A DNA stretch of 64,000 bases from Eledone cirrhosa (lineage: Eukaryota), in contig OZ024743.1 of the NCBI GenBank assembly GCA_964016885.1, positions 205,654,001 to 205,718,000 of the forward strand. The letters are read 5' to 3'. The translations under genes were made by a program, and so were the position numbers. Numbering within the stretch: the first letter of the stretch is position 1; every line of letters starts with the position of its first letter. Positions 1-64,000 of this stretch are shown here, in pieces. The notes below the pieces were generated by a model. That model did not search any database. It had not been told where the DNA came from and saw nothing but the letters and a program-made list of their open reading frames with translations.

Positions 1-3000
1 GGCTGGAAATTATCTCCCCTTGATTTTTTTACAAATTATCTCCCCCTGATTTTTTTTTACAAATTATCTCCCCCTGATTTTTTTTTTACAAATTATCTCC
101 CCTTGGACGGGTGGAAATTATCTCCCCTTGATTTTTTTACAAATTATCTCCCCCTGATTTTTTTTTACCAATCTACCCCTGATTTAAAAAAAAAAATTAT
201 CTCCCCTTCGCTGGCTGGAAATTATCTCCCCTTGGACGGCTTGAAATTATCTCCCCTTGGACGGCTAGAAATTACCTCTCCTTGGACGGCTGAAAATTAT
301 CTCCCCTTGATTTTTTTTACAAATTATCTCCCCCTGATTTTTTTTTTTACAAATTATCTCCCCCTGGTTTTATTTTACATATTATCTACCCCTGATTTTT
401 TTTTACAAATTATCTCCACCTGATCTTTTTTACAAATTATCTCCCCCTGATTTTTTTTTTACAAATTATCTCCCTCTGATTTTTTTACAAATTATCTCCC
501 CCTGATTTTTTTTTCAAATTATCTCCGCCTGATTTTTTTAAATATTATCTTCCCTTGGCTGGCGGGAAATTATCTCCCCTTGGACGGCTGGAAATTATCT
601 CCCCTTGGAAGGATGGAAATTATCTCCCCTTGGACGGCTGGAAATTATCTCCCCTTGCACTGCTGGAAATTATCTCCCCTTGGACGGCTGGAAATTATCT
701 CCCCTTGGCTGGAAATTATCTCCCCTTGGACGGCTAGAAATTATCTCTTTGGACGGCTGGAAATTATCTCCCCTTGATTTTTTTACAAATTATCTCCCCC
801 TTATTTTTTTTACAAATCTCCCAGTGATTTTTTTTAAAAAATTATCTCCCCTTCGCTGGCTGGAAATTATCTCCCCTTGGACGCTGGAAATTATAGCCCC
901 TTGGAGGGCTGGAAATTATCTTCCCTTGGACGGCTGGAAATTATCTCCCCTTGATTTCTTTTACAAATTATCTCCCCCTGATTTTTTTTTACAAATTTTC
1001 TCCCCCTGATTTTTTTTTACAAATTATCTCCCCCTGATTTTTTTTACAACTTATCTCCGCCTGATTTTTTTAAAAAAATTATCTCCCCTTGGACGGCTGG
1101 AAATTATCTCCCCTTGGACGGCTGGAAATTATCTCTCCTTGGACGGCTGGAAATTATCTCCCCTTGATTTTTTTTACTAATTATCTCCCCCTGATTTTTT
1201 TTTACAAATATCTCCCCTTGGCTGCCTGGAAATTATCTCCCCTTGGCAGGCTGGAAATGATCTCCCCTTGGACGGCTGGAAATTATCTCCTCTTGGACGC
1301 CTAGAAATTACCTCTCCTTGGACAGCTGTAAATTATCTCCCCTTGGACGGCTGGAAATTATCTTGCCTTGGACGGCTGGAAATTATCTCCCCTTGATTTT
1401 GTATACAAATTATCTCCCCCTGATTTTTTTTTACAAATTATCTGCCCCTGATTATTTTTTTACAAATTAGCTTCGCCTGATTTTTTTTTAAAATTATCTC
1501 CCCTTGGACGGCTGGAAATTATCTCCCCTTGGACGGCTGGAAATTATCTCCCCTTGAACGGCTAGAAATTACCTCTCCTTGGACGGCTGAAAATTATCTC
1601 CCCTTGGACGGCTGGAAATTATCGCCCCCTGATTTTTTTTAACAAATTATCTCCACCTGATTTTTTTTACAAATCATCTCCGCCTGATTTTTTTAAAAAA
1701 TTATCTCCCTTTCGCTGGCTGGAAATTATCTCCCCTTGGACGCTGGAAATTATAGCCCCTTGGACGGCTGGAAATTATCTCCCCTTGATTTTTTTTACAT
1801 ATTATCTCCCCCTGATTTTTTTTTACGAATTATCTCCCCGATTTTTTTTTACAAATTATCTCCCCCTGATTTTTTTTTACAAATTATCTCCGCCTGATTT
1901 TTTAAAAAAAATTATCTCCCCTTGGACGGCTGGAAATTATCTCCCCTTGAACGGCTGGAAATTATCTCCCCTTGGACGGCTGGAAATTATCTCCCCTTGG
2001 ACGGCTGGAAATTATCTCCCCTTGGACGGCTAGAAATTACCTATCCTTGGACGGCTGGAAATTATCTCCCCTTGGACGGCTGGAAATTATCTCCCCTTGG
2101 ACGGCTGGAAATTATTTCCCCTTGATTTTTTTTACAAATTATCTCCCCCTGATTTTTTTTACAAATCTCCCCCTAATTTAAAAAAAAATTATCTCCCCTT
2201 CGCTGGCTGGAAATTATCTCCCTTTGGACGGCTGGAAATTATAGCTGCTTGTAGGGCTGGAAATGATCTCCCCTTGGACGGCTGGAAATTATCTCCCCTT
2301 TATGTCTTCTACAAATTATCTACCCCTGATTTTTTTTTTAGAAATTATCTCCGCCTGATTTTTTTTTACAAATTATCTGCGCCTGATTTTTTTTTACAAA
2401 TTAGCTCCGCCTGATTTTTTAAAAAATTATCTCCCCTTGGACGGCTGGAAATTATCTCCCCTTGGACGGCTGGAAATTATCTCCCCTTGGACGGCTAGAA
2501 ATTATCTCTCTTTGGACGACTGGAAATTATCTCCCCTTGGACGGCTGCAAATTATCTCCCCTTGATTTTTTTTACAAATTATCTCCCCCTGATTTTTTTT
2601 ACAAATTATCTCCCCCTGATTTTTTTTTACAAATTATCTACCCCTGATTTTTTTACAAATTATCTCCCCCTGATTTTTTTTTACAAATTATCTCCCCCTG
2701 ATTTTTTTTACAAATTATCTCCCCCTGATTTTTTTTTACAAATTATCTCCCCCTGATTTTTTTACAAATTATCTCCCCCTGATTTTTTTAAAAATTATCT
2801 TCCCTGGGCTGGCGGGAAATTATCTCCCCTTGGACGGCTGGAAATTATCTTCCCTTGCACGGCTGGAAATTATCTCCCCTTGGACAGCTGGAAATTATCT
2901 GCCCTTGATTTTGTTTTTACAAATTATCTCCCCCTGATTTTTTTTACAAATTATCTCCACCTGATTTTTTAAAAAATTATCTCCCCTTGGACGGCTGGAA

Positions 3001-6000
3001 ATTATCTCCCCTTGGCTGGAAATTATCTCCCCTTGGACGGCTAGAAATTATCTCTCTTTGGACGGCTGGAAATAATCTCCCTTTGATTTTTTTACAATTT
3101 ATCTCCCTCTGATTTTTTTTACAAATCTCCCCCTGATTTTTTAAAAAAAATTATCTCCCCTTCGCTGGCTGGAAATTATCTCCCCTTGGACACTTGAAAT
3201 TATATCCCCTTGGAGGGCTGGAAATTATCTTCCCTTGGACGGCTGGAAATTATCTCCCCTTGATTTTTTTTACAAATTATCTCCCCCTGATTTTTTTTAC
3301 AAATTATCTGCCCCTGATTTTTTTTTACAAATTATCTCCGCCTGATTTTTTTTTAAATTATCTCTCCTTGGACGGCTGGAAATTATCTCCCCTTGATTTT
3401 TTTTACAAATTATCTCCCCCTGATTTTTTTTTACAAATTATCTACCCCTGATTTTTTTTTACAAATTATCTCCCCCTGATTTTTTTTACAAATTATCTCC
3501 CCCTGATTTTTTTTTTACAAATTATCTCCCCCTGATTTTTTTACAAATTATCTCCCCCTGATTTTTTTTTCAAATTATCTCCGCCTGATTTTTTTAAATA
3601 TTATCTTCCCTTGGCTGGCGGGAAATTATCTCCCCTTGGACGGCTGGAAATTATCTCCCCTTGGAAGGATGGAAATTATCTCCCCTTGGACGGCTGGAAA
3701 TTATCTCCCCTTGCACTGCTGGAAATTATCTCCCCTTGGACGGCTGGAAATTATCTCCCCTTGGCTGAAAATTATCTCCCCTTGGACGGCTAGAAATTAT
3801 CTCTCTTTGGACGGCTGGAAATTATCTCCCCTTGATTTTTTTACAAATTATCTCCCCCTGATTTTTTTACAAATCTCCCAGTGTTTTTTTTTTTAAATTA
3901 TCTCCCCTTCGCTGGCTGGAAATTATCTCCCCTTGGACGCTGGAAATTATAGCCCCTTGGAGGGCTGGAAATTATCTTCCCTTGGACGGCTGGAAATTAT
4001 CTCCCCTTGATTTTTTTTACAAATTATCTCCCCCTGATTTTTTTTACAAATTATCTCCCCCTGATTTTTTTTTACAAATTATCTCCCCCTGATTTTTTTT
4101 ACAACTTATCTCCGCCTGATTTTTTAAAAAAAATTATCTCCCCTTGGACGGCTAGAAATTACCTCTCCTTGGACGGCTGAAAATTATCTCCCCTTGGACG
4201 GCTGGAAATTATCTCCCCTTGATTTTTTTTACAAATTATCTCCCCCTGATTTTTTTTTACAAATTATCTCCCCCTGATTTTTTTTACAAATTATCTCCCC
4301 CTGATTTTTTTTTACAAATTATCTCCCCCTGATTTTTTTTACAAATTATATCCCCTTGGCTGGCTGGAAATTATCTCCCCTTGGAGGCTGGAATTTATCT
4401 CCCCTTGGACGGCTAGAAATTACCTCTCCTTGGACGGCTGGAAATTATGTCTCCTTGGACGGCTAGAAATTACCTCTCCTTGGACGGCTGAAAATTATCT
4501 CCCCTTGGACGGCTGGAAATTATCTCCCCTTGATTTTTTTTACAAATTATCTCCCCCTGATTTTTTTTACAAATTATCTCCCCCTGATTTTTTTTTACAA
4601 ATTATCTCCCCCTGATTTTTTTTACAAATTATATCCCCTTGGCTGGCTGGAAATTATCTCCCCTTGGAGGCTGGAATTTATCTCCCCTTGGACGGCTAGA
4701 AATTACCTCTCCTTGGACGGCTGGAAATTATGTCTCCTTGGACGGCTGGAAATTATCTCCCCTTGGACGGCTGGAAATTATCTCCCCTTGGACGGCTGGA
4801 AATTATCTCCCCTTGGACGGCTAGATATTACCTCTCCTTGGACGGCTGGAAATTATCTGCCCTTGGACGGCTGGAAATTATCTCCCCTTGGACGGCTGGA
4901 AATTATTTCCCCTTGATTTTTTTTACAAATTATCTCCCGCTGATTTTTTTTTACAAATCTCCACCTAATTAAAAAAAAAATTATCTCCCCTTCGCTGGCT
5001 GGAAATTATCTTGCTTTGGACGGCTGGAAATTATAGCCGCTTGTAGAGCTGGAAATTATCTCCCCTTGGACGGCTGGAAATTATCTCCCCTTGATTTTTT
5101 TTACTAAGTATCTCACCCTGATTTTTTTTTACAAATTATCTCCGCCTGATTTTTAAAAAAAAATTATCTCCCCTTGGCTGGATGGAAATTATCTCCCCTT
5201 GGACGGCTGGAAATTATCTTCCCTTGATTTCTTCTACAAATTATCTACCCCTGATTTTTTTTACAAATTATCTCTCCCTGATTTTTTTTTACAAATATCT
5301 CTCCTTGGCTGGCTGGAAATTATCTCCCCTTGGCTGGCTGGAAATTATCTCCCCCTGATATTTTTTTACAAATTAGCTCCCCCTGATTTTTTTTACAAAT
5401 TATCTCCCCCTGATTTTTTTCACAAATTATCTCCCCCTGATTTTTTTTACAAATTATCTCCCCTGATTTAAAAAGAAAAAGTATCTCCCCTTGGACGGCT
5501 GGAAATTATCTCCCCTTGGACGGCTGGAAATTATCGCCCCCTGATTTTTTTTTTACAAATTATCTCCACCTGATTTTTTTTACAAATCATCTCAGCCTGA
5601 TTTTTTTTAAATATTATCTCCCTTGGCTTGCTGGAAATTATCTCCCCTTGGACGGCTATAAATTATCTCTCCTTCGACGGCTGGAAATTATCTCCCCTTG
5701 ATTTTTTTACAAATTATCTCCCCCTGATTTTTTTTTACCAATCAACCCCTGATTTAAAAACAAAAATTATCACCCCTTCGCTGGCTGGAAATTATCTCCC
5801 CTTGGACGGCTGGAAATTATCTCCCCTTGATTTTTTTTACAAATTATCTACCCCTGATTTTTTTACAAATTATCTCCCCCTGATTTTTTTTACAAATTAT
5901 CTCCCCCTGATTTTTTTTTTTTACAAATTATCTCCGCCTGATTTTTTTAGAATTATCTCCCCTTGGCTGGATGGAAATTATCTCCCCTTGGACGGCTGGA

Positions 6001-9000
6001 AATTATCTCCCCTTGGAAGGATGGAAATTATCTCCCCTTGGACGCCTGGAAATTATCTCCCCTTGCACGGCTGGAAATTATCTCCCCTTGGACGGCTAGA
6101 AATTACCTCTCCTTGGACGGCTGAAAATTATCTCCCCTTGGACGGCTGGAAATTATGTCCACCTGATTTTTTTTACAAATCATCTCCGCCTGATTTTTTT
6201 AAAAACTTATCTCCCTTGGCTTGCTGGAAATTATCTCCCCTTGGACGGCTATAAATTATCTCTCCTTCGACGGCTGGAAATTATCTCCCCTTGATTTTTT
6301 TACAAATTATCTCCCCCTGATTTTTTTTTACCAATCTACCCCTGATTTAAAAAAAAATTATCTCTCCTTCGCTGGCTGGAAATTATCTCCCCTTGGACGG
6401 CTGGAAATTATCTCCCCTTGATTTTTTTTACAAATTATCTACCCCTGATTTTTTTACAAATTATCTCCCCCTGATTTTTTTTTACAAATTATCTCCCTTT
6501 GATTTTTTTTTTTTACAAATTATCTCCGCCTGATTTTCTTAAAATTATCTCCCCTTGGCTGGATGGAAATTATCTCCCCTAGGACGGCTGGAAATTATCT
6601 CCCCTTGCACGGCTGGAAATTATCTTCCCTTGGACGGCTAGAAATTACCTCTCCTTGGACGGCTGAAAATTATCTCCCCTTGGACGGCTGGAAATTATCT
6701 CCCCCTGATTTTTTTTACAAATTATCTCCCCTTGCACGGCTGGAAATTATCTCCCCTTGGACGGCTGGAAATTATCTGCCCTTGATTTTGTTTTTACAAA
6801 TTATCTCCCCCTGATTTTTTTTACAAATTATCTCCACCTGATATTTTAAAAAATTATCTCCCCTTGGACGGCTGGAAATTATCTCCCCTTGGCTGGAAAT
6901 TATCTCCCCTTGGACGGCTAGAAATTATCTCTCTTTGGACGGCTGGAAATTATCTCCCCTTGATTCTTTTTACAAATTATCTCCCCCTGATTTTTTTTAC
7001 AAATCTCCCAGTGATTTTTTTAAAAAAATTATCTCCCCTTCGCTGGCTGGAAATTATCTCCCCTTGGACGCTGGAAATTATAGCCCCTTGGACGCTGGAA
7101 ATTATCTTCCCTTGGACGGCTGGAAATTATCTCCCCTTGATTTTTTTACAAATTATCTCCCCCTGATTTTTTTTTACAAATTATCTCCCCCTGATTTTTT
7201 TTTTACAAATTATCTCCCCTTGGACGGGTGGAAATTATCTCCCCTTGATTTTTTTACAAATTATCTCCCCCTGATTTTTTTTTACCAATCTACCCCTGAT
7301 TTAAAAAAAAAAATTATCTCCCCTTCGCTGGCTGGAAATTATCTCCCCTTGGACGGCTTGAAATTATCTCCCCTTGGACGGCTAGAAATTACCTCTCCTT
7401 GGACGGCTGAAAATTATCTCCCCTTGATTTTTTTTACAAATTATCTCCCCCTGATTTTTTTTTTTACAAATTATCTCCCCCTGGTTTTATTTTACATATT
7501 ATCTACCCCTGATTTTTTTTTACAAATTATCTCCACCTGATCTTTTTTACAAATTATCTCCCCCTGATTTTTTTTTTACAAATTATCTCCCTCTGATTTT
7601 TTTACAAATTATCTCCCCCTGATTTTTTTTTCAAATTATCTCCGCCTGATTTTTTTAAATATTATCTTCCCTTGGCTGGCGGGAAATTATCTCCCCTTGG
7701 ACGGCTGGAAATTATCTCCCCTTGGAAGGATGGAAATTATCTCCCCTTGGACGGCTGGAAATTATCTCCCCTTGCACTGCTGGAAATTATCTCCCCTTGG
7801 ACGGCTGGAAATTATCTCCCCTTGGCTGGAAATTATCTCCCCTTGGACGGCTAGAAATTATCTCTCTTTGGACGGCTGGAAATTATCTCCCCTTGATTTT
7901 TTTACAAATTATCTCCCCCTTATTTTTTTTACAAATCTCCCAGTGATTTTTTTTAAAAAATTATCTCCCCTTCGCTGGCTGGAAATTATCTCCCCTTGGA
8001 CGCTGGAAATTATAGCCCCTTGGAGGGCTGGAAATTATCTTCCCTTGGACGGCTGGAAATTATCTCCCCTTGATTTCTTTTACAAATTATCTCCCCCTGA
8101 TTTTTTTTTACAAATTATCTCCCCCTGATTTTTTTTTACAAATTATCTCCCTCTGATTTTTTTTACAACTTATCTCCGCCTGATTTTTTTAAAAAAATTA
8201 TCTCCCCCTGGACGGCTGGAAATTATCTCCCCTTGGACGGCTGGAAATTATCTCTCCTTGGACGGCTGGAAATTATCTCCCCTTGATTTTTTTTACTAAT
8301 TATCTCCCCCTGATTTTTTTTTACAAATATCTCCCCTTGGCTGCCTGGAAATTATCTCCCCTTGGCAGGCTGGAAATGATCTCCCCTTGGACGGCTGGAA
8401 ATTATCTCCTCTTGGACGCCTAGAAATTACCTCTCCTTGGACAGCTGTAAATTATCTCCCCTTGGACGGCTGGAAATTATCTCGCCTTGGACGGCTGGAA
8501 ATTATCTCCCCTTGATTTTGTATACAAATTATCTTTACAAATTATCTGCCCCTGATTATTTTTTTACAAATTAGCTTCGCCTGATTTTTTTTTAAAATTA
8601 TCTTCCCTTGGACGGCTGGAAATTATCTCCCCTTGGACGGCTGGAAATTATCTCCCCTTGAACGGCTAGAAATTACCTCTCCTTGGACGGCTGAAAATTA
8701 TCTCCCCTTGGACGGCTGGAAATTATCGCCCCCTGATTTTTTTTAACAAATTATCTCCACCTGATTTTTTTTACAAATCATCTCCGCCTGATTTTTTTAA
8801 AAAATTATCTCCCTTTCGCTGGCTGGAAATTATCTCCCCTTGGACGCTGGAAATTATAGCCCCTTGGACGGCTGGAAATTATCTCCCCTTGATTTTTTTT
8901 ACATATTATCTCCCCCTGATTTTTTTTTACGAATTATCTCCCAGATTTTTTTTTACAAATTATCTCCCCCTGATTTTTTTTTACAAATTATCTCCGCCTG

Positions 9001-11670
9001 ATTTTTTAAAAAAAATTATCTCCCCTTGGACGGCTGGAAATTATCTCCCCTTGAACGGCTGGAAATTATCTCCCCTTGGACGGCTGGAAATTATCTCCCC
9101 TTGGACGGCTGGAAATTATCTCCCCTTGGACGGCTAGAAATTACCTATCCTTGGACGGCCGGAAATTATCTCCCCTTGGACGGCTGGAAATTATCTCCCC
9201 TTGGACGGCTGGAAATTATTTCCCCTTGATTTTTTTTACAAATTATCTCCCCCTGATTTTTTTTACAAATCTCCCCCTAATTTAAAAAAAAATTATCTCC
9301 CCTTCGCTGGCTGGAAATTATCTCCCTTTGGACGGCTGGAAATTATAGCTGCTTGTAGGGCTGGAAATGATCTCCCCTTGGACGGCTGGAAATTATCTCC
9401 CCTTTATGTCTTCTACAAATTATCTACCCCTGATTTTTTTTTTACAAATTATCTCCGCCTGATTTTTTTTTACAAATTATCTGCGCCTGATTTTTTTTTA
9501 CAAATTAGCTCCGCCTGATTTTTTAAAAAATTATCTCCCCTTGGACGGCTGGAAATTATCTCCCCTTGGACGGCTGGAAATTATCTCCCCTTGGACGGCT
9601 AGAAATTATCTCTCTTTGGACGACTGGAAATTATCTCCCCTTGGACGGCTGCAAATTATCTCCCCTTGATTTTTTTTACAAATTATCTCCCCCTGATTTT
9701 TTTTACAAATTATCTCCCCCTGATTTTTTTTTACAAATTATCTACCCCTGATTTTTTTACAAATTATCTCCCCCTGATTTTTTTTTACAAATTATCTCCC
9801 CCTGATTTTTTTTACAAATTATCTCCCCCTGATTTTTTTTTACAAATTATCTCCCCCTGATTTTTTTACAAATTATCTCCCCCTGATTTTTTTAAAAATT
9901 ATCTTCCCTGGGCTGGCGGGAAATTATCTCCCCTTGGACGGCTGGAAATTATCTTCCCTTGCACGGCTGGAAATTATCTCCCCTTGGACAGCTGGAAATT
10001 ATCTGCCCTTGATTTTGTTTTTACAAATTATCTCCCCCTGATTTTTTTTACAAATTATCTCCACCTGATTTTTTAAAAAATTATCTCCCCTTGGACGGCT
10101 GGAAATTATCTCCCCTTGGCTGGAAATTATCTCCCCTTGGACGGCTAGAAATTATCTCTCTTTGGACGGCTGGAAATAATCTCCCTTTGATTTTTTTACA
10201 ATTTATCTCCCTCTGATTTTTTTTACAAATCTCCCCCTGATTTTTTTAAAAAAATTATCTCCCCTTCGCTGGCTGGAAATTATCTCCCCTTGGACACTTG
10301 AAATTATATCCCCTTGGAGGGCTGGAAATTATCTTCCCTTGGACGGCTGGAAATTATCTCCCCTTGATTTTTTTTACAAATTATCTCCCCCTGATTTTTT
10401 TTACAAATTATCTGCCCCTGATTTTTTTTTACAAATTATCTCCGCCTGATTTTTTTTAAAATTATCTCTCCTTGGACGGCTGGAAATTATCTCCCCTTGA
10501 TTTTTTTTACAAATTATCTCCCCCTGATTTTTTTTTACAAATTATCTACCCCTGATTTTTTTTTACAAATTATCTCCCCCTGATTTTTTTTACAAATTAT
10601 CTCCCCCTGATTTTTTTTTTACAAATTATCTCCCCCTGATTTTTTTACAAATTATCTCCCCCTGATTTTTTTTTCAAATTATCTCCGCCTGATTTTTTTA
10701 AATATTATCTTCCCTTGGCTGGCGGGAAATTATCTCCCCTTGGACGGCTGGAAATTATCTCCCCTTGGAAGGATGGAAATTATCTCCCCTTGGACGGCTG
10801 GAAATTATCTCCCCTTGCACTGCTGGAAATTATCTCCCCTTGGACGGCTGGAAATTATCTCCCCTTGGCTGAAAATTATCTCCCCTTGGACGGCTAGAAA
10901 TTATCTCTCTTTGGACGGCTGGAAATTATCTCCCCTTGATTTTTTTACAAATTATCTCCCCCTGATTTTTTTACAAATCTCCCAGTGTTTTTTTTTTTAA
11001 ATTATCTCCCCTTCGCTGGCTGGAAATTATCTCCCCTTGGACGCTGGAAATTATAGCCCCTTGGAGGGCTGGAAATTATCTTCCCTTGGACGGCTGGAAA
11101 TTATCTCCCCTTGATTTTTTTTACAAATTATCTCCCCCTGATTTTTTTTACAAATTATCTCCCCCTGATTTTTTTTTACAAATTATCTCCCCCTGATTTT
11201 TTTTACAACTTATCTCCGCCTGATTTTTTAAAAAAAATTATCTCCCCTTGGACGGCTAGAAATTACCTCTCCTTGGACGGCTGAAAATTATCTCCCCTTG
11301 GACGGCTACAAATTATCTCCCCTTGATTTTTTTTACAAATTATCTCCCCCTGATTTTTTTTTACAAATTATCTCCCCCTGATTTTTTTTACAAATTATCT
11401 CCCCCTGATTTTTTTTTACAAATTATCTCCCCCTGATTTTTTTTACAAATTATATCCCCTTGGCTGGCTGGAAATTATCTCCCCTTGGAGGCTGGAATTT
11501 ATCTCCCCTTGGACGGCTAGAAATTACCTCTCCTTGGACGGCTGGAAATTATGTCTCCTTGGACGGCTAGAAATTACCTCTCCTTGGACGGCTGAAAATT
11601 ATCTCCCCTTGGACGGCTGGAAATTATCTCCCCTTGATTTTTTTTACAAATTATCTCCCCCTGATTTTTT
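1..11670 (+). repeat. Direct duplication at ~7.1 kb offset (1-~4570 matches ~7118-~11670)
   Basis: 555/7672 (+7117), 1785/8889, 2462/9566 and 3611/10715 (+7104). The offset change is explained by a 2-bp CT indel near 748 and a 15-bp deletion near 8535. Confidence 0.92.
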
Positions 11671-14625: not shown

Positions 14626-15176
14626 CTTCGCTGGCTGGAAATTATCTCCCCTTGGACGGCTGGAAATTATCTCCCCTTGGAAAGATGGAAATTATCTCCC
14701 CTTGGACGGCTGGAAATTATCTCCCCTTGCACGGCTGGAAATTATCTCCCCTTGGACGGCTAGAAATTACCTCTCCTTGGACGGCTGAAAATTATCTCCC
14801 CTTGGACGGCTGGAAATTATCTCCCCTTGGAAGGATGGAAATTATCTCCCCTTGGACGGCTGGAAATTATCTCCCCTTGCACGGCTGGAAATTATCTCCC
14901 CTTGGACGGCTGAAAATTATCTCCCCTTGGAAGGATGGAAATTATCTCCCCTTGGACGGCTGGAAATTATCTCCCCTTGCACGGCTGGAAATTATCTCCC
15001 CTTGGACGGCTAGAAATTACCTCTCCTTGGACGGCTGAAAATTATCTCCCCTTGCACGGCTGGAAATTATCTCCCCTTGGACGGCTAGAAATTACCTCTC
15101 CTTGGACGGCTGAAAATTATCTCCCCTTGCACGGCTGGAAATTATCTCCCCTTGGACGGCTGGAAATTATCTGCCC
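14626..15176 (+). repeat. Type A monomer GGAAATTATCTCCCCTTGGACGGCT; longest pure run seen (22 consecutive 25-bp units)
   Basis: Exact 25-bp phase from 14626 to 15151. Spacer variants are GACGG, GAAGGAT, CACGG, CTAG+TTACCTCT and CTGAAAA. Confidence 0.95.
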
Positions 15177-51949: not shown

Positions 51950-53770
51950 TGGACGGCTGGAAATTATCTCCCCTTGATTTTGTATACAAATTATCTCCCC
52001 CTGATTTTTTTTTACAAATTATCTGCCCCTGATTATTTTTTTACAAATTAGCTCCGCCTGATTTTTTTTTAAAATTATCTCCCCTTGGACGGCTGGAAAT
52101 TATCTCCCCTTGGACGGCTGGAAATTATCTCCCCTTGAACGGCTAGAAATTACCTCTCCTTGGACGGCTGAAAATTATCTCCCCTTGGACGGCTGGAAAT
52201 TATCGCCCCCTGATTTTTTTTAACAAATTATCTCCACCTGATTTTTTTTACAAATCATCTCCGCCTGATTTTTTTAAAAAATTATCTCCCTTTCGCTGGC
52301 TGGAAATTATCTCCCCTTGGACGCTGGAAATTATAGCCCCTTGGACGGCTGGAAATTATCTCCCCTTGATTTTTTTTACATATTATCTCCCCCTGATTTT
52401 TTTTTACGAATTATCTCCCCGATTTTTTTTTACAAATTATCTCCCCCTGATTTTTTTTTACAAATTATCTCCGCCTGATTTTTTTACAAAAATTATCTCC
52501 CCTTGGACGGCTGGAAATTATCTCCCCTTGAACGGCTGGAAATTATCTCCCCTTGGACGGCTGGAAATTATCTCCCCTTGGACGGCTGGAAATTATCTCC
52601 CCTTGGACGGCTGGAAATTATCTCCCCTTGGACGGCTAGAAATTACCTCTCCTTGGACGGCTGGAAATTATCTCCCCTTGGACAGCTGGAAATTATCTCC
52701 CCTTGGACGGCTGGAAATTATTTCCCCTTGATTTTTTTTTTCAAATTATCTCCCCCTGATTTTTTTTACAAATCTCCCCCTAATTTAAAAAAAATTATCT
52801 CCCCTTCGCTGGCTGGAAATTATCTCCCTTTGGACGGCTGGAAATTATAGCTGCTTGTAGGGCTAGAAATTATCTCCCCTTGGACGGCTGGAAATTATCT
52901 CCCCTTGATTTTTTTTACTAATTATCTCCCCCTGATTTTTTTTTACAAATATCTCCCCTTGGCTGCCTGGAAATTATCTCCCCTTGGCAGGCTGGAAATG
53001 ATCTCCCCTTGGACGGCTGGAAATTATCTCCTCTTGGACGCCTAGAAATTACCTCTCCTTGGACAGCTGTAAATTATCTCCCCTTGGACGGCTGGAAATT
53101 ATCTCGCCTTGGACGGCTGGAAATTATCTCCCCTTGATTTTGTATACAAATTATCTCCCCCTGATTTTTTTTTACAAATTATCTGCCCCTGATTATTTTT
53201 TTACAAATTAGCTCCGCCTGATTTTTTTTTAAAATTATCTCCCCTTGGACGGCTGGAAATTATCTCCCCTTGGACGGCTGGAAATTATCTCCCCTTGAAC
53301 GGCTAGAAATTACCTCTCCTTGGACGGCTGAAAATTATCTCCCCTTGGACGGCTGGAAATTATCGCCCCCTGATTTTTTTTAACAAATTATCTCCACCTG
53401 ATTTTTTTTACAAATCATCTCCGCCTGATTTTTTTAAAAAATTATCTCCCTTTCGCTGGCTGGAAATTATCTCCCCTTGGACGCTGGAAATTATAGCCCC
53501 TTGGACGGCTGAAAATTATCTCCCCTTGATTTTTTTTACATATTATCTCCCCCTGATTTTTTTTTACGAATTATCTCCCCGATTTTTTTTTACAAATTAT
53601 CTCCCCCTGATATTTTTTTACAAATTATCTCCGCCTGATTTTTTTAAAAAAATTATCTCCCCTTGGACGGCTGGAAATTATCTCCCCTTGAACGGCTGGA
53701 AATTATCTCCCCTTGGACGGCTGGAAATTATCTCCCCTTGGACGGCTGGAAATTATCTCCCCTTGGACGG
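51950..53770 (+). repeat. Nested ~0.65 kb repeat at +1160 inside the 9,165-bp unit (also in copy 2 at ~61115-62935)
   Basis: 52366/53526 and 61531/62691. The TTTTGTATAC...TTACGAATT module occurs twice per unit. Confidence 0.85.
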
Positions 53771-54277
53771 CTAGAAATTACCTATCCTTGGACGGCTGGA
53801 AATTATCTCCCCTTGGACGGCTGGAAATTATTTCCCCTTGATTTTTTTTACAAATTATCTCCCCCTGATTTTTTTTACAAATCTCCCCCTAATTTAAAAA
53901 AAAATTATCTCCCCTTCGCTGGCTGGAAATTATCTCCCTTTGGACGGCTGGAAATTATAGCTGCTTGTAGGGCTGGAAATTATCTCCCCTTGGACGGCTG
54001 GAAATTATCTCCCCTTTATGTCTTCTACAAATTATCTACCCCTGATTTTTTTTTTACAAATTATCTCCGCCTGATTTTTTTTTACAAATTATCTGCGCCT
54101 GATTTTTTTTTACAAATTAGCTACGCCTGATTTTTTAAAAAATTATCTCCCCTTGGACGGCTGGAAATTATCTCCCCTTGGACGGCTGGAAATTATCTCC
54201 CCTTGGACGGCTAGAAATTATCTCTCTTTGGACGACTGGAAATTATCTCCCCTTGGACGGCTGCAAATTATCTCCCC

Positions 54278-54565
54278 TTGATTTTTTTTACAAATTATCT
54301 CCCCCTGATTTTTTTTACAAATTATCTCCCCCTGATTTTTTTTTACAAATTATCTACCCCTGATTTTTTTACAAATTATCTCCCCCTGATTTTTTTTTAC
54401 AAATTATCTCCCCCTGATTTTTTTTACAAATTATCTCCCCCTGATTTTTTTTTACAAATTATCTCCCCCTGATTTTTTTACAAATTATCTCCCCCTGATT
54501 TTTTTTTACAAATTATCTCCCCCTGATTTTTTTACAAATTATCTCCCCCTGATTTTTTTAAAAAT
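54278..54565 (+). repeat. Type B monomer ACAAATTATCTCCCCCTGA(T)n; example long pure run (about 10 units)
   Basis: Consecutive units differ mainly in T-tract length. Similar long runs lie at ~2563-2790, ~17198-17460, ~37346-37632 and ~63443-63730. Confidence 0.93.
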
Positions 54566-57500
54566 TATCTTCCCTGGGCTGGCGGGAAATTATCTCCCCT
54601 TGGACGGCTGGAAATTATCTTCCCTTGGCTGGATGGAAATTATCTCCCCCTGGACGGCTGGAAATTATCTCCCCTTGATTTCTTCTACAAAGTATCTACC
54701 CCTGATTTTTTTTTTACAAATTATTTCTCCCTGATTTTTTTTTACAAATATCTCCCCTTGGCTGGCTGGAAATTACCTCCCCGTGGCTGGCTGGAAATTA
54801 TCTCCCCCTGATATTTTTTTACAAATTAGCTCCCCCTGATTTTTTTTTACAAATTATCTCCCCCTGATTTTTTTTTACCAATCTACCCCTGATTTAAAAA
54901 AAAAATTATCTCCCCTTCGCTGGCTGGAAATTATCTCCCCTTGGACGGCTGGAAATTATCTCCCCTTGGAAGGATGGAAATTATCTCCCCTTGGACGGCT
55001 GGAAATTATCTCCCCTTGCACGGCTGGAAATTATCTCCCCTTGGACGGCTAGAAATTACCTCTCCTTGGACGGCTGAAAATTATCTCCCCTTGGACGGCT
55101 GGAAATTATCTCCCCCTGATTTTTTTTTAAAATTATCTCCCCTTGCACGGCTGGAAATTATCTCCCCTTGGACGGCTGGAAATTATCTGCCCTTGATTTT
55201 GTTTTTACAAATTATCTCCCCCTGATTTTTTTTACAAATTATCTCCACCTGATATTTAAAAAAATTATCTCCCCTTGGACGGCTGGAAATTATCTCCCCT
55301 TGGCTGGAAATTATCTCCCCTTCGCTGGCTGGAAATTATCTCCCCTTGGACGCTGGAAATTATAGCCCCTTGGAGGCTGGAAATTATCTTCCCTTGGACG
55401 GCTGGAAATTATCTCCCCTTGATTTTTTTTACAAATTATCTCCCCCTGATTTTTTTTTACAAATTATCTCCCCCTGATTTTTTTTTTACAAATTATCTCC
55501 GCCTGATTTTTTTTTTAAAATTATCTCCCCTTGGACGGCTGGAAATTATCTCCCCTTGGACGGCTGGAAATTATCTCCCCTTGGACGGCTAGAATTTACC
55601 TCTCCTTGGACGGCTGAAAATTATCTCCCCTTGATTTTTTTTACAAATTATCTCCCCCTGATTTTTTTTTTTACAAATTATCTCCCCCTGATTTTATTTT
55701 ACATATTATCTACCCCTGATTTTTTTTTACAAATTATCTCCGCCTGATTTTTTTACAAATTATCTCCCCCTGATTTTTTTACAAATTATCTCCCCCTGAT
55801 TTATTTTACAAATTATCTCCGCCTGATTTTTTTAAATATTATCTTCCCTTGGCTGGCGGGAAATAATCTCCCCTTGGACGGCTGGAAATTATCTCCCCTT
55901 GGAAGGATGGAAATTATCTCCCCTTGGACGGCTGGAAATTATCTCCCCTTGCACGGCTGGAAATTATCTCCCCTTGGACGGCTAGAAATTATCTCTCTTT
56001 GGACGGCTGGAAATTATCTCCCCTTGATTTTTTTTACAAATTATCTCCCCCTGATTTTTTTTACAAATCTCCCAGTGATTTTTTAAAAAAAATAATCTCC
56101 CTTTCGCTGGCTGGAAATTATCTCCCCTTGGACGCTGGAAATTATAGCCCCTTGGAGGGCTGGAAATTATCTTCCCTCGGACGGCTGGAAATTATCTCCC
56201 CTTGATTTTTTTTACATATTATCTCCCCCTGATTTTTTTTTACAAATTATCTCCCCGATTTTTTTTTACAAATTATCTCCCCCTGATTTTTTTTTTACAA
56301 ATTATCTCCGCCTGATTTTTAAAAAAAAATTATCTCCCCTTGGACGGCTGGAAATTATCTCCCCTTGAACGGCTGGAAATTATCTCCCCTTGGACGGCTG
56401 GAAATTATTTCCCCTTGATTTTTTTTACAAATTATCTCCCCCTGATTTTTTTTACAAATCTCCCCCTAATTTAAAAATAAATTATCTCCCCTTCGCTGGC
56501 TGGAAATTATCTCCCTTTGGACGGCTCGAAATTATAGCTGCTTGTAGGGCTGGAAATTATCTCCCCTTGGACGGCTGGAAATTATCTCCCCTTGATTTTT
56601 TTTACTAATTATCTCCCCCTGATTTTTTTTTACAAATTATCTCCGCCTGATTTTTTTTTAAAAATTATCTCCCTGGATGGAAATTTTCTCCCCTTGGACG
56701 GCTGGAAATTATCTCCCCTTTATGTCTTCTACAAATTATCTACCCCTGATTTTTTTTTTACAAATTATCTCTCCCTGATTTTTTTTACAAATATCTCGCC
56801 TAGGCTGGCTGGAAATTATCTCCCCTTGGCTGACTGGAAATTATCTCCCCTTGGACGGCTGGAAATTATCTCCCCTTGGACGCCTAGAAATTACCTCTCC
56901 TTGGACAGCTGTAAATTATCTCCCCTTGGACGGCTGTAAATTATCTCCCCTTGGACGGCTGGAAATTATCTCCCCTTGATTTTGTATACAAATTATCTCC
57001 CCCTGATTTTTTTTTACAAATTATCTGCCCCTGATTATTTTTTTACAAATTAGCAACGCCTGATTTTTTTTAAAAATTATCTCCCCTTGGACGGCTGGAA
57101 ATTATCTCCCCTTGGACGGCTGGAAATTATCTCCCCTTGAACGGCTAGAAATTACCTCTCTTTGGACGGCTGAAAATTATCTCCCCTTGGACGGCTGGAA
57201 ATTATCTCCCCTTGAATTTTTTACAAATTATCTCCCCCTTATTTTTTTTTACAAATTATCTCCCCCTGATTTTTTTTTACAAATTATCTACCCCTGATTT
57301 TTTTTCCAGATTATCTCCCCCTGATTTTTTTTTACAAATTATCTCCCCCTGTTTTTTTTTACAAATTATTTCCCCCTGATTTTTTTACAAATTATCTCCC
57401 CCTGATTTTTTTTACAAATTATCTCCGCCTGATTTTTTTAAATATTATCTTCCCTTGGCTGGCGGGAAATTATCTCCCCTTGGACGCCTGGAAATTATCT

Positions 57501-60500
57501 CCCCTTGGAAGGATGGAAATTATCTCCCCTTGGACGGCTGGAAATTATCTCCCCTTGCACTGCTGGAAATTATCTCCCCTTGGACGGCTGGAAATTATCT
57601 GCCCTTGATTTTGTTTTTACAAATTATCTTCCCCTGATTTTTTTTACAAATTATCTCCACCTGATTTTTTAAAAAATTATCTCCCCTTGGACGGCTGGAA
57701 ATTATCTCCCCTTGGCTGGAAATTATCTCCCCTTGGACGGCTAGAAATTATCTCTCTTTGGACGGCTGTAAATTATCTCCCCTTGATTTTTTTTACAAAT
57801 TATCTCCCCCTGATTTTTTTTACAAATCTCCCAGTGATTTTTTAAAAAAATTATCTCCCCTTCGCTGGCTGGAAATTATCTCCCCTTGGACGCTGGAAAT
57901 TATAGCCCCTTGGAGGGCTGGAAGTTATCTTCCCTTGGAGGGCTGGAAATTATCTTCCCTTGGACGGCTGGAAATTATCTCCCCTTGATTTTTTTTACAA
58001 ATTATCTCCCACTGATTTTTTTTTACAAATTATCTCCCCCTGATTTTTTTTTTACAAATTATCTCCGCCTGATTTTTTTTAAAAATTATCTCCCCTTGGA
58101 CGGCTGGAAATTATCTCCCCTTGGACGGCTGGAAATTATATCCCCTTGGACGGCTAGAAATTACCTCTCCTTGGACGGCTGAAAATTATCTCCCCTTGGA
58201 CGGCTGGAAATTATCTCCCCTTGATTTTTTTTACAAATTATCTCCCCCTGATTTTTTTTACAAATTATCTCCCCCTGATTTTTTTTTACAAATTATCTCC
58301 CCCTGATTTTTTTTTACAAATTATCTCCCCCTGATTTTTTTTTACAAATTATCTCCCCCTGATTTTTTTACAAATTATCTCCCCTTGGCTGGCTGGAAAT
58401 TATCTCCCCTTGGAGGCTGGAATTTATCTCCCCTTGGAGGGCTGGAAATTATCTCCCCTTGGACGGCTAGAAATTACCTCTCCTTGGACGGCTGGAAATT
58501 ATCTCCCCTTGAACGGCTGGAAATTATTTCCCCTTGGACGGCTGGAAATTATCTCCCCTTGAACGGCTGGAAATTATCTCCCCTTGGACGGCTAGAAATT
58601 ACCTCTCCTTGGACGGCTGGAAATTATCTCCCCTTGGACGGCTGGAAATTATCTCCCCTTGGACGGCTGGAAATTATCTCCCCTTGATTTTTTTTACAAA
58701 TTATCTCTCCCTGATTTTTTTTACAAATATCCCCCTAATTTAAAAAAAAATTATCTCCCCTTCGCTGGCTGGACATTATCTCCCTTTGGACGGCTGGAAA
58801 TTATAGCTGCTTGTCGGGCTAGAAATTATCTCCCCTTGGACGGCTGGACATTATCTCCCCTTGATTTTTTTTACTAATTATCTACACCTGATTTTTTTTT
58901 ACAAATTATCTCCGCCTGATTTTTTTTTTTAAATTATCTCCCCTTGGCTGGATGGAAATTTTCTCCCCTTCGACGGCTGGAAATTATCTCCCCTTGATGT
59001 CTTCTACAAATTATCTACCCCTGATTTTTTTTTTACAAATCATCTCTCCCTGATTTTTTTTACAAATATCTCCCCTTGGCTGGCTGGAAATTATCTCCCC
59101 TTGGCTGGCTGGAAATTATCTCCCCTTGGACGGCTGGAAATTATCTCCCCTTGGACGCCTAGAAATTACCTCTCCTTGGACAGCTGTAAATTATCTCCCC
59201 TTGGACGGCTGGAAATTCTCTCGCCTTGGACGGCTGGAAATTATCACCCCTTGGACGGCTATAAATTATCTCTCCTTCGACGGCTGGAAATTATCTCCCC
59301 TTGATTTTTTTACAAATTATCTCCCCCTGATTTTTTTTTACCAATCTACCCCTGATTTAAAAAAAAAATTATCTCCTCTTCGCTAGCTGGAAATTATCTC
59401 CCCTTGGACGGCTGGAAATTATCTCTCCTTGATTTATTTTACAAATTATCTACCCTGATTTTTTTACAAATTATCTCCCCGATTTTTTTTTACAAATTAT
59501 CTCCCCCTGATTTTTTTTTTACAAATTATCTCCGCCTGATTTTTTTAAAATTATCTCCCCTTGGCTGGATGGAAATTATCTCCCCTTGGACGGCTGGAAA
59601 TTATCTCCCCTTGCACGGCTGGAAATTATCTTCCCTTGGACGGCTAGAAATTACCTCTCCTTGGACGGCTGAAAATTATCTCCCCTTGGACGGCTGGAAA
59701 TTATCTCCCCCTGATTTTTTTTACAAATTATCTCCCCTTGCACGGCTGGAAATTATCTCCCCTTGGACGGCTGGAAATTATCTGCCCTTGATATTGTTTT
59801 TACAAATTATCTCCCCCTGATTTTTTTTACAAATTATCTCCACCTGATATTTTAAAAAATTATCTCCCTTGGACGGGTGGAAATTATCTCCCCTTGGACG
59901 GCTTGAAATTATCTCCCCTTGGACGGCTAGAAATTACCTCTCCTTGGACGGCTGAAAATTATCTCCCCTTGATTTTTTTTACAAATTATCTCCCCCTGAT
60001 TTTTTTTTTTACAAATTATCTCCCCCTGATTTTATTTTACATATTATCTACCCCTGATTTTTTTTTACAAATTATCTCCACCTGATCTTTTTTACAAATT
60101 ATCTCCCCCTGATTTTTTTTTTACAAATTATCTCCCCCTGATTTTTTTACAAATTATCTCCCCCTAATTTATTTTACAAATTATCTCCGCCTGATTTTTT
60201 TAAATATTAACTTTCCTTGGCTGGCGGGAAATAATCTCCCCTTGGAAGGATGGAAATTATCTCCCCTTGGACGGCTGGAAATTATCTCCCCTTGCACGGC
60301 TGGAAATTATCTCCCCTTGGACGGCTGGAAATTATCTCCCCTTGGCTGGAAATTATCTCCCCTTGGACGGCTAGAAATTATCTCTCTTTGGACGGCTGGA
60401 AATTATCTCCCCTTGATTTTTTTTACAAATTATCTCCCCCTGATTTTTTTTACAAATCTCCCAGTGATTTTTTAAAAAAAATTATCTCCCTTTCGCTGGC

Positions 60501-63500
60501 TGGAAATTATCTCCCCTTGGACGCTGGAAATTATAGCCCCTTGGAGGGCTGGAAATTATCTTCCCTTGGACGGCTGGAAATTATCTCCCCTTGATTTTTT
60601 TTACATATTATCTCCCCCTGATTTTTTTTTACAAATTATCTCCCCGATTTTTTTTTACAAATTATCTCCCCCTGATTTTTTTTTTACAAATTATCTCCGT
60701 CTGATTTTTTTTAAAAATTATCTCCCCTTGGACGGCTGGAAATTATCTCCCCTTGGACGGCTGGAAATTATCTCCCCTTGGACGGCTAGAAATTACCTCT
60801 CCTTGGACGGCTGAAAATTATCTCCCCTTGGACGGCTGGAAATTATCTCCCCTTGATTTTTTTTACAAATTATCTCCCCCTGATTTTTTTTTACAAATTA
60901 TCTCCCCCTGATTTTTTTTTTATAAATTATCTCCCCCTGATTTTTTTTACAAATTATCTCCCCCTGATTTTTTTACAAATTATCTCCCCTTGGCTGGCTG
61001 GAAATTATCTCCCCTTGGAGGCTGGAATTTATCTCCCCTTGGACGGCTGGAAATTATCTCCCCTTGAACGGCTGGAAATTATCTCCCCTTGGACGGCTGG
61101 AAATTATCTCCCCTTGGACGGCTGGAAATTATCTCCCCTTGATTTTGTATACAAATTATCTCCCCCTGATTTTTTTTTACAAATTATCTGCCCCTGATTA
61201 TTTTTTTACAAATTAGCTCCGCCTGATTTTTTTTTAAAATTATCTCCCCTTGGACGGCTGGAAATTATCTCCCCTTGGACGGCTGGAAATTATCTCCCCT
61301 TGAACGGCTAGAAATTACCTCTCCTTGGACGGCTGAAAATTATCTCCCCTTGGACGGCTGGAAATTATCGCCCCCTGATTTTTTTTAACAAATTATCTCC
61401 ACCTGATTTTTTTTACAAATCATCTCCGCCTGATTTTTTTAAAAAATTATCTCCCTTTCGCTGGCTGGAAATTATCTCCCCTTGGACGCTGGAAATTATA
61501 GCCCCTTGGACGGCTGGAAATTATCTCCCCTTGATTTTTTTTACATATTATCTCCCCCTGATTTTTTTTTACGAATTATCTCCCCGATTTTTTTTTACAA
61601 ATTATCTCCCCCTGATTTTTTTTTACAAATTATCTCCGCCTGATTTTTTTACAAAAATTATCTCCCCTTGGACGGCTGGAAATTATCTCCCCTTGAACGG
61701 CTGGAAATTATCTCCCCTTGGACGGCTGGAAATTATCTCCCCTTGGACGGCTGGAAATTATCTCCCCTTGGACGGCTGGAAATTATCTCCCCTTGGACGG
61801 CTAGAAATTACCTCTCCTTGGACGGCTGGAAATTATCTCCCCTTGGACAGCTGGAAATTATCTCCCCTTGGACGGCTGGAAATTATTTCCCCTTGATTTT
61901 TTTTTTCAAATTATCTCCCCCTGATTTTTTTTACAAATCTCCCCCTAATTTAAAAAAAATTATCTCCCCTTCGCTGGCTGGAAATTATCTCCCTTTGGAC
62001 GGCTGGAAATTATAGCTGCTTGTAGGGCTAGAAATTATCTCCCCTTGGACGGCTGGAAATTATCTCCCCTTGATTTTTTTTACTAATTATCTCCCCCTGA
62101 TTTTTTTTTACAAATATCTCCCCTTGGCTGCCTGGAAATTATCTCCCCTTGGCAGGCTGGAAATGATCTCCCCTTGGACGGCTGGAAATTATCTCCTCTT
62201 GGACGCCTAGAAATTACCTCTCCTTGGACAGCTGTAAATTATCTCCCCTTGGACGGCTGGAAATTATCTCGCCTTGGACGGCTGGAAATTATCTCCCCTT
62301 GATTTTGTATACAAATTATCTCCCCCTGATTTTTTTTTACAAATTATCTGCCCCTGATTATTTTTTTACAAATTAGCTCCGCCTGATTTTTTTTTAAAAT
62401 TATCTCCCCTTGGACGGCTGGAAATTATCTCCCCTTGGACGGCTGGAAATTATCTCCCCTTGAACGGCTAGAAATTACCTCTCCTTGGACGGCTGAAAAT
62501 TATCTCCCCTTGGACGGCTGGAAATTATCGCCCCCTGATTTTTTTTAACAAATTATCTCCACCTGATTTTTTTTACAAATCATCTCCGCCTGATTTTTTT
62601 AAAAAATTATCTCCCTTTCGCTGGCTGGAAATTATCTCCCCTTGGACGCTGGAAATTATAGCCCCTTGGACGGCTGAAAATTATCTCCCCTTGATTTTTT
62701 TTACATATTATCTCCCCCTGATTTTTTTTTACGAATTATCTCCCCGATTTTTTTTTACAAATTATCTCCCCCTGATATTTTTTTACAAATTATCTCCGCC
62801 TGATTTTTTTAAAAAAATTATCTCCCCTTGGACGGCTGGAAATTATCTCCCCTTGAACGGCTGGAAATTATCTCCCCTTGGACGGCTGGAAATTATCTCC
62901 CCTTGGACGGCTGGAAATTATCTCCCCTTGGACGGCTAGAAATTACCTATCCTTGGACGGCTGGAAATTATCTCCCCTTGGACGGCTGGAAATTATTTCC
63001 CCTTGATTTTTTTTACAAATTATCTCCCCCTGATTTTTTTTACAAATCTCCCCCTAATTTAAAAAAAAATTATCTCCCCTTCGCTGGCTGGAAATTATCT
63101 CCCTTTGGACGGCTGGAAATTATAGCTGCTTGTAGGGCTGGAAATTATCTCCCCTTGGACGGCTGGAAATTATCTCCCCTTTATGTCTTCTACAAATTAT
63201 CTACCCCTGATTTTTTTTTTACAAATTATCTCCGCCTGATTTTTTTTTACAAATTATCTGCGCCTGATTTTTTTTTACAAATTAGCTACGCCTGATTTTT
63301 TAAAAAATTATCTCCCCTTGGACGGCTGGAAATTATCTCCCCTTGGACGGCTGGAAATTATCTCCCCTTGGACGGCTAGAAATTATCTCTCTTTGGACGA
63401 CTGGAAATTATCTCCCCTTGGACGGCTGCAAATTATCTCCCCTTGATTTTTTTTACAAATTATCTCCCCCTGATTTTTTTTACAAATTATCTCCCCCTGA

Positions 63501-64000
63501 TTTTTTTTTACAAATTATCTACCCCTGATTTTTTTACAAATTATCTCCCCCTGATTTTTTTTTACAAATTATCTCCCCCTGATTTTTTTTACAAATTATC
63601 TCCCCCTGATTTTTTTTTACAAATTATCTCCCCCTGATTTTTTTACAAATTATCTCCCCCTGATTTTTTTTTACAAATTATCTCCCCCTGATTTTTTTAC
63701 AAATTATCTCCCCCTGATTTTTTTAAAAATTATCTTCCCTGGGCTGGCGGGAAATTATCTCCCCTTGGACGGCTGGAAATTATCTTCCCTTGCACGGCTG
63801 GAAATTATCTCCCCTTGGACAGCTGGAAATTATCTGCCCTTGATTTTGTTTTTACAAATTATCTCCCCCTGATTTTTTTTACAAATTATCTCCACCTGAT
63901 TTTTAAAAAAATTATCTCCCCTTGGACGGCTGGAAATTATCTCCCCTTGGCTGGAAATTATCTCCCCTTGGACGGCTAGAAATTATCTCTCTTTGGACGG

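What the first reader, a model, noticed from the sequence alone, without database searches (positions are those of the whole stretch)
1..64000. Binary satellite: constant 13-bp core plus one of two unrelated spacers, read out as alternating A and B blocks
Seen: every unit is AAATTATCTCCCC-YTG followed by either a GC-rich 9-mer (GACGGCTGG) or an AT-rich A(T)7-11AC spacer. The two spacers have no evident similarity to each other, while the core is shared. The array therefore reads as a two-letter string with runs of mostly 1-10 units. Inference: one ancestral monomer gave rise to the other by spacer replacement, or two satellites were shuffled through the shared core. Retention of the core in both types may reflect a protein-binding constraint. 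I do not recognise this repeat family.
Basis: partly seen in the sequence, partly recalled or inferred. Interest (0 to 1): 0.75.

Follow-up and report, generated by a model that had tools for sequence, protein, structure and literature searches.

The report
Two-block satellite of fused octopus chromosomes
This window is part of a roughly 16-million-base repeat made of alternating short runs of two 25-28-base units near the middle of four giant chromosomes of a likely octopus genome; it likely grew by copying one ancestral two-block unit rather than by a function of the shared core, and it likely marks heterochromatin at old chromosome-fusion sites.

Summary
In detail: 2,477 units (1,366 A, 25 bp; 1,111 B, ~27 bp) in 569 runs fill the window. 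The string is not freely shuffled. Junctions carry fixed marks (first B has TTG, inner B CTG; last B usually ends in poly-A; first A usually has GCT), shared by all arrays sampled. Paralogous blocks differ by like-with-like unit gains and losses, with no true A/B swap. The commonest cassette is B3A4, 177-178 bp. The core is exact in only 57% of units and has no fewer inferred substitution events than the A spacer, so the protein-constraint idea is unsupported. About 16 Mb lies at mid-chromosome satellite clusters on the four giant chromosomes (379-443 Mb) and two unplaced scaffolds of a likely octopod genome; two rare-variant samplers found none on the smaller chromosomes. A one-base variant of A without B survives at array edges and on small chromosomes, likely the parent. 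A centromere role is untested, and other satellites are rival candidates. The scan noted this family before on another piece of this genome (e1-10323831). Paper searches found no description.

The parts
1..64000 (+). Uninterrupted A/B two-block satellite, one orientation; part of an array of about 966 kb at G000:C4:205,461,643-206,427,690 (left end read through, right end at an assembly gap)
761..937 (+). Example of the commonest cassette, B3A4 (177 bp): first B with TTG, inner B, shortened poly-A last B, first A with CGCTGGCTGG, three further A variants
   Evidence: 67 of 282 cassettes in the window are B3A4
14614..15163 (+). Longest A run (22 units)
45644..63792 (+). Exact tandem duplication: 8,984 bases (45644-54627) repeated 9,165 bases further on; a very young duplication or an assembly duplication
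7..11545 (+). Older tandem duplication with an offset of about 7.1 kb (7-4724 against 7124-11545): 158 of 182 aligned units identical, one 11-unit indel
8526..8538 (+). 13-bp deletion unit (partial core fused to the end of a B spacer)

Best explanation
This is a megabase satellite built from cassettes of a B run followed by an A run, and it likely arose from one ancestral two-block cassette that was amplified passively, not from repeated shuffling of two satellites through a functional core. Steps: (1) Shown: a 25-bp repeat A' (one base from A) exists without B in small arrays on several chromosomes and at array edges, where on C1 it alternates with a ~300-bp AT-rich block. (2) Inferred: an A-type core gained a short AT-rich spacer (B), B was tandemly copied, and a cassette near B3A4 (~178 bp) formed; its two junctions were made once or a few times. 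(3) Shown by comparing paralogous blocks: the array grows by tandem duplications of 7-40 kb offset, and run lengths drift through gain or loss of whole units between like units plus T-tract slippage. (4) Inferred: junction units are shielded from homogenisation and keep old variants. (5) Shown: arrays sit in satellite clusters at 43-63% of the length of the four giant chromosomes. (6) Inferred: these clusters are (peri)centromeric heterochromatin at or near fusion sites. The core is shared by descent.
For: Junction marks: 245/283, 797/827, 207/284, 791/827, Fisher p < 1e-150 though units are not independent; the same marks in all 9 array groups sampled and the same B>A junction classes across arrays. 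First A has GCT in 483 of about 741 cases against GAC in inner A. A' has GCC, one step from each (302 of 325 spacers in 24 kb). Runs are not geometric: length-1 runs A 9 observed against 59 expected, B 16 against 72; B-run length correlates with the next A run (rho 0.43; 0.33 on 177 distinct cassettes). Paralogue comparison: 1,745 identical, 116 substituted, 44 homopolymer-only, 0 true swaps of 1,907 pairs; 10 distinct indels, 5 pure A, 2 pure B, 3 mixed and in register. No core constraint. A' dimer 1,239 matches, listed on C1, C3, C21, C25. Location. Mapped arrays (16.3 Mb assumed) predict 104,236 A 23-mers against 105,716 counted. On C2 a degenerate TTAGGG array (242.0-243.5 Mb), a 196-bp satellite and an AT-rich short satellite lie directly before the array. 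Octopods typically have 30 chromosomes and an argonaut reached 28 by two fusions (10.1101/2025.05.16.652989, passages).
Against: Raw variant frequency is lower in the core than in the spacer. 157 of 743 B>A and 97 of 749 A>B junctions lack the usual mark, so core crossovers happen at times. A' is barely more diverged than A (7.6% over 64 units against 6.5% over 1,206), so A' being the parent is a parsimony argument; it could be derived. The likeness of B to the ~300-bp block is weak (best post hoc p 0.03, single motifs p 0.07 and 0.56). B3A4 is not the top cassette on C1, C3+ or C123. The 14 paralogous pairs are partly redundant through the 9-kb duplication. No synteny test of fusion points was possible. 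Most array ends examined are assembly gaps, so order and orientation are scaffolded. C1 has two separate sites 27 Mb apart.
Confidence: 0.68

Rival explanations
1. The satellite is the active centromere DNA of the four giant chromosomes, and the ~178-bp B3A4 cassette is kept because it positions centromeric nucleosomes (A run wrapped, T-tract run as linker).
For: One main mid-chromosome cluster on each giant, megabase size, shared between chromosomes (29-45% of sampled 61-mers of other arrays occur in the window against 69% for its own array). B3A4 is the top cassette in 7 of 11 sample groups; two lineages reach 177-178 bp by different deletions (113 of 141 and 44 of 46), other B3A4 cassettes spread over 175-184.
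Against: Absent from the smaller chromosomes in two samplers, so not the general centromere repeat. Only 6-28% of cassettes are 170-185 bp. A 196-bp satellite lies beside it on C1 and C2, and earlier unreviewed notes name that and an AT-rich family as wider candidates. Two lineages are too few to show selection on length.
Confidence: 0.17
2. One reading: two satellites are shuffled through a 13-16-bp core that is kept by a binding protein, as with the Meloidogyne boxes.
For: Core shared by A, B and A'; the AT-rich block of the sister array also leaves and rejoins at the core; lower raw variability of the core; a minority of junctions look like core crossovers.
Against: Inferred substitution events are no rarer in the core; core exact in 57% of units; junction marks are inherited; no true swap in 1,907 pairs.
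Confidence: 0.1
3. The block pattern is an assembly artefact.
For: An exact 8,984-base tandem duplication in the window; many array ends at gaps.
Against: The same units and junctions are in contigs of runs X1 and X4 and in raw reads of X21, a different study with the same species label; the grammar is consistent over 9 array groups. An artefact could affect single duplications and array lengths, not the pattern.
Confidence: 0.03

Closest known systems
Meloidogyne box-sharing satellites (17-bp Box 1, PMC3694981, abstract and section 13 read; 19-bp box, PMC8097292, abstract read)
   Same: Unrelated-looking sequences joined at a short shared motif; junctions between monomer types fall at the motif.
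   Different: There the box is far more conserved than the rest (one change between monomers of 32% identity; 'completely conserved' in CenH3-bound repeats). Here the core is over half of each unit, mutates as often as the spacer, and junctions are mostly inherited. No CENP-A data here.
Patchwork bovine 1.706 satellite and other satellites with internal subrepeats (recalled, no call)
   Same: Long unit made of alternating segments of two related short subrepeats.
   Different: Recalled as a fixed long repeat of related subrepeats; here run lengths vary from cassette to cassette and the two spacers are unrelated.
Human minisatellite variant repeat loci such as MS32 and MSY1 (recalled; the search listed no paper on them)
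   Same: Short units of a few types read as a digital string, with blocks changing by unit gain and loss.
   Different: Those are kilobase single loci whose types differ by one or two bases; this is ~16 Mb on four chromosomes with whole-spacer differences.
Ditypic satellite centromeres (10.64898/2026.09.17.752431, passages read)
   Same: Megabase arrays shared by several chromosomes; several families in one region; sub-100-bp monomers occur.
   Different: The passages describe two families intermixed or on separate chromosomes, not two subrepeats inside one cassette; 'cephalopod' and 'mollus' have 0 hits in its main text; supplements were closed.

Membership tests
Satellite DNA (concertedly evolving tandem array) | Long head-to-tail arrays, hundreds of kb or more | tested here: met
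   ~966 kb on C4, ~16 Mb in all
Satellite DNA (concertedly evolving tandem array) | Higher similarity within than between arrays; growth by tandem duplication | tested here: met
   61-mer sharing 0.69 against 0.29-0.45; duplications
Box-sharing satellites (Meloidogyne type) | Shared motif more conserved than the rest of the monomer | tested here: not met
   14.2 against 13.1 inferred events per site in A, 7.3 against 6.0 in B; raw frequency leans the other way
Box-sharing satellites (Meloidogyne type) | Transitions between monomer types at the shared motif | tested here: inconclusive
   A>B switch falls after core+TTG; most B>A switches pass through a poly-A junction unit; 157 of 743 join at the core
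Box-sharing satellites (Meloidogyne type) | Association with CenH3 | not testable with these tools
   No ChIP data
Centromeric satellite | One locus per chromosome on most chromosomes | tested here: not met
   Found on C1-C4, C123, C1499 only: 46 of 46 hits and the first 100 of 125, listed in contig order past C27; two sites on C1
Centromeric satellite | CENP-A enrichment and position at the primary constriction | not testable with these tools
   No ChIP, FISH or Hi-C
Regular higher-order repeat (alpha-satellite type) | Fixed multimer repeated at high identity | tested here: not met
   80 B>A and 69 A>B junction types and variable run lengths; duplication offsets 7-40 kb vary along the window
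Telomeric repeat | At chromosome ends | tested here: not met
   Interstitial; 4 of 19 contig starts read are plain telomere hexamers and none has the core

The most novel reading that the evidence does not exclude
This satellite is the centromere DNA specific to four fusion chromosomes of an octopod: a low-copy 25-bp repeat was turned into a nucleosome-length two-block cassette and amplified to ~16 Mb only at the fused centromeres, with its ancestor still lying at the array edges. It would give the first named cephalopod centromere repeat and a readable case of centromere turnover after fusion.
Probability: 0.15. Interest if true: 0.72.

Novelty: new member of a known kind. Interest (0 to 1): 0.4.

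Why it matters
Cephalopod centromeres and satellites seem barely described (searches found no such paper). This family gives a FISH/ChIP probe confined to the four giant chromosomes. Its letter-like units make array turnover directly countable, and a likely parent repeat survives beside it. The lesson is cautionary: a shared core in a mixed satellite can be plain descent, and the junction units show it. If the arrays prove to be the centromeres of fusion chromosomes, the case would bear on centromere turnover after karyotype change.

Tried and rejected
Dispersed copies of the unit: 99% of laid RAD reads of X21 run on into unlike sequence, but all 6 read-end hotspots shown (of 15) fall on AATT, so these are likely restriction-ligation chimeras; no exact A 23-mer lies on C1 before 251.19 Mb. 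Conservation in other species: runs labelled organisms B, C, D, E, G hold the units, but at peak depths of about 27,500, 16,400, 20, 9,000 and 575 against 5.6 million in X1, with a similar profile in all but the thinnest run; cross-contamination is the simpler reading, so no claim is made. Expression: no RNA holder listed; the kind of run X4 is not on record. Descent from the neighbouring 196-bp satellite: best p 0.04 of 18 alignment tests against shuffles, rejected. B spacer from the ~300-bp AT block: weak. Convergent orientation as a fusion mark: + then - on C1, C2 and C3, but the inner ends examined on C1 and C2 are assembly gaps and C3 has a further + patch at 168.8-169.0 Mb; not used. No telomere dimers in the 220 kb between the two C2 arrays. 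G-quadruplex: G4Hunter maximum 1.20, fraction of windows at 1.2 or more 0.000. CpG decay in A: 3,016 CG against 26 TG and 53 CA, little decay. Rfam on the first 10 kb of 64: none. Plasmid collection: no match. Papers: 0 hold the core 13-mer; 123 hold one of three short motifs, and the 15 listed are on unrelated subjects. Dfam, Repbase and nt could not be searched. A direct genome search for long B-free runs of consensus A was not completed; counts alone leave no room for a large near-consensus A-only array (ratio of A 23-mer to junction 3.42 observed, 3.64 predicted from mixed arrays). A B-only parent was not searched for.
Full report
Observation. The window is one uninterrupted, single-orientation satellite. 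Decomposition with the two commonest units as templates gave 2,477 units, 1,366 A (mostly 25 bp) and 1,111 B (mostly 26-29 bp), in 569 runs with modes A4 and B3. The core is exact in 1,414 of 2,475 complete units. The spacers share no similarity.

Grammar. The string is not a free two-letter code. B units after an A carry TTG in 245 of 283 cases; B units after a B carry CTG in 797 of 827. The last B before an A run ends in poly-A in 207 of 284 cases, TAC in 58, other in 19; inner B units end in TAC in 791 of 827. The first A of a run mostly has GCT where inner A units have GAC. The same marks appear in all nine array groups sampled on C1-C4, C123 and C1499, and the same B>A junction classes recur across chromosomes. 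Single-unit runs are far rarer than a memoryless switch predicts (A 9 against 59, B 16 against 72 of 283 runs each). B-run length correlates with the following A run (rho 0.43; 0.33 on distinct cassettes), while A-run against following B-run does not (rho -0.08; -0.14). The inherited unit is therefore a B-run plus A-run cassette. B3A4 is the commonest (67 of 282 in the window), 177-178 bp in most cases, and the top type in 7 of 11 sample groups.

How it changes. The window holds nested duplications with offsets of 7-40 kb, one of them exact over 8,984 bases. Aligning the 14 longest paralogous pairs unit by unit gave 1,745 identical, 116 substituted and 44 homopolymer-only pairs; the 2 apparent A/B swaps were one 13-bp deletion unit. 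The 10 distinct indels were whole units: 5 pure A, 2 pure B, 3 mixed and in register (some pairs are redundant). Crossovers between unlike units do seem to have happened: 157 of 743 B>A junctions lack the poly-A unit and 97 of 749 A>B junctions have CTG, but most of the former belong to one lineage found on nearly all arrays. T-tracts are capped: with fixed flanks T12 has 46 genome matches, T13 one, T14 none.

Core constraint. Raw variant frequency is lower in the A core than the A spacer (5.4% against 9.0% after collapsing), but that counts amplified and position-specific variants many times. Counting substitution events on a nearest-neighbour network of 322 A types (3,682 units) and 149 B types (2,618 units; last-B units and T-run columns left out) gave 14.2 events per site in the A core against 13.1 in the spacer (p for spacer > core 0.98 stratified, 0.63 unstratified) and 7.3 against 6.0 in B; G/C sites change more than A/T sites in both parts.

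Host and location. The window is G000:C4:205,654,001-205,718,000 in a 3.0-Gb assembly. Molluscan hemocyanin domains occur in three sets of seven on C1; seven units per subunit is the octopod arrangement (recalled), and the best single-unit PDB matches are 4yd9_C and 1js8_A (recalled as squid and octopus). Four chromosomes are 443, 416, 379 and 379 Mb; the next are 135, 103, 94 and 61 down to 22 Mb, about 26-27 in all (C17, C19, C21, C23 and C28 onward not measured). The A 23-mer has 105,716 matches. Arrays were mapped at C1 251.19-252.1 (+) and 279.16-279.3 (-), C2 244.31-244.32, 245.59-248.28 (+) and 248.50-251.1 (-), C3 162.70-165.6 (+), 165.9-167.9 (-) and 168.8-169.0 (+), C4 205.46-206.43 (+), and scaffolds C123 and C1499. 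With 16.3 Mb assumed they predict 104,236 matches. Two rare-variant samplers gave no hit on C5-C27 (46 of 46 listed; 100 of 125 listed in contig order). On C2 the array follows a degenerate TTAGGG array, a 196-bp satellite and an AT-rich 11-13-bp satellite; the 196-bp satellite also lies near the C1 279-Mb patch; an AT-rich block at the C4 left edge is about 99% identical to a ~6-kb repeat at the C2 array end. Octopods typically have 30 chromosomes, and fusions reduced an argonaut to 28 (10.1101/2025.05.16.652989, passages); three octopods have 2n=60, mostly biarmed (PMC5646656, passages). Four giants of about twice the usual largest size (recalled) fit four fusions, and the arrays would lie near the joins. 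This is inference; no synteny test was possible, and most array ends examined are assembly gaps.

Likely parent. At C1 251.77-252.2 Mb the array passes without a gap into a sister satellite: runs of A' (GCC for GAC) alternating with a 240-360-bp AT-rich block that leaves after the core and rejoins before a core, with no B units beyond the transition. Its junction has 190 matches, the 100 listed all on C1. The A' dimer has 1,239 matches, the 100 listed at C1 231.6 and 251.8-252.0, C3 165.86 and 179.4, C21 and C25. GCC is one step from inner-A GAC and one CpG transition from first-A GCT, so A' is the parsimonious ancestor. A' is only slightly more diverged than A, so the direction is not proven. 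The source of the B spacer is open: likeness to the AT-rich block is weak and to the 196-bp repeat not significant.

Comparison and novelty. It works like a patchwork satellite with variable subrepeat numbers. It resembles the Meloidogyne box satellites in layout (PMC3694981, abstract and section 13; PMC8097292, abstract) but fails their defining test of motif conservation. Ten paper searches found no description of this repeat; a 2026 Octopus vulgaris repeat annotation has 0 hits for 'satellite' or 'centromer' (PMC13282606, find), and a 325-species centromere atlas 0 hits for 'cephalopod' in its main text (its supplements were closed and may bear on this). Repeat databases could not be searched. 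An earlier unreviewed note of this scan (e1-10323831) covers the same family on another piece and reached a similar reading; I saw it, after the junction analysis, and it prompted the look for parents.

Verdict. A real, apparently undescribed, large satellite with an unusually readable history. Its binary look is best explained by passive amplification of a two-block cassette. Sequence mechanism about 0.75 likely, fusion-site or pericentromeric location about 0.55, active centromere about 0.17. Interest 0.40.

Noticed in passing
L231, L232, L251-L262 (G000:C1:251.77-252.2 Mb): Sister two-block satellite: runs of A' units alternating with a 240-360-bp AT-rich block ending in a GAAAC-rich tail; 190 junction matches; joined without a gap to the A/B array.
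   Followed up: partly
L203-L204 (G000:C2:244,310,588-244,320,872): A gap-free 10-kb island of the A/B satellite inside a GC-rich 196/227-bp satellite, joined at short T and A runs.
   Followed up: partly
L227, L241-L243 (G000:C2:242.0-243.5 Mb): Degenerate TTAGGG array of at least 1.5 Mb in mid-chromosome, next to the satellite cluster; possible fusion relic.
   Followed up: no
L111-L116, L068, L009 (C2:248.283-248.337 Mb; C4:205.45-205.46 Mb): A ~6-kb AT-rich tandem unit ends the C2 + array; a 1.6-kb piece flanking the C4 array start is about 99% identical to it, suggesting exchange between chromosomes.
   Followed up: partly
L153-L159, L163-L166, L248 (C2:245.2-245.59; C3:168.0-168.6 Mb) and L162, L168, L196-L197: Two short AT-rich satellites (11-13-bp units with variable T-tracts; 8-bp units) flank the arrays on C2 and C3; the first resembles the B spacer by eye, untested.
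   Followed up: no
L020, L021, L023, L221-L226 (C4:206.5-210.5 Mb): At least five further unrelated satellites follow the array on C4 over 4 Mb.
   Followed up: no
L132 (C2:248.494 Mb) and run X6: A LINE-like reverse-transcriptase stretch (by eye) lies before the gap at the C2 - array; a similar sequence is joined to the satellite in one contig of X6.
   Followed up: no
G000:C1:173.7-173.9 Mb and C26:21.9-22.0 Mb: Three tandem seven-unit hemocyanin genes on C1 and an inverted pair on C26.
   Followed up: no
run X4: A small run of the same species label holds B units at about three times the depth of A units (X1 about 1.1 times); its kind is not on record.
   Followed up: no
window 45644-63792: Exact 8,984-base tandem duplication; may be very young or an assembly duplication.
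   Followed up: partly
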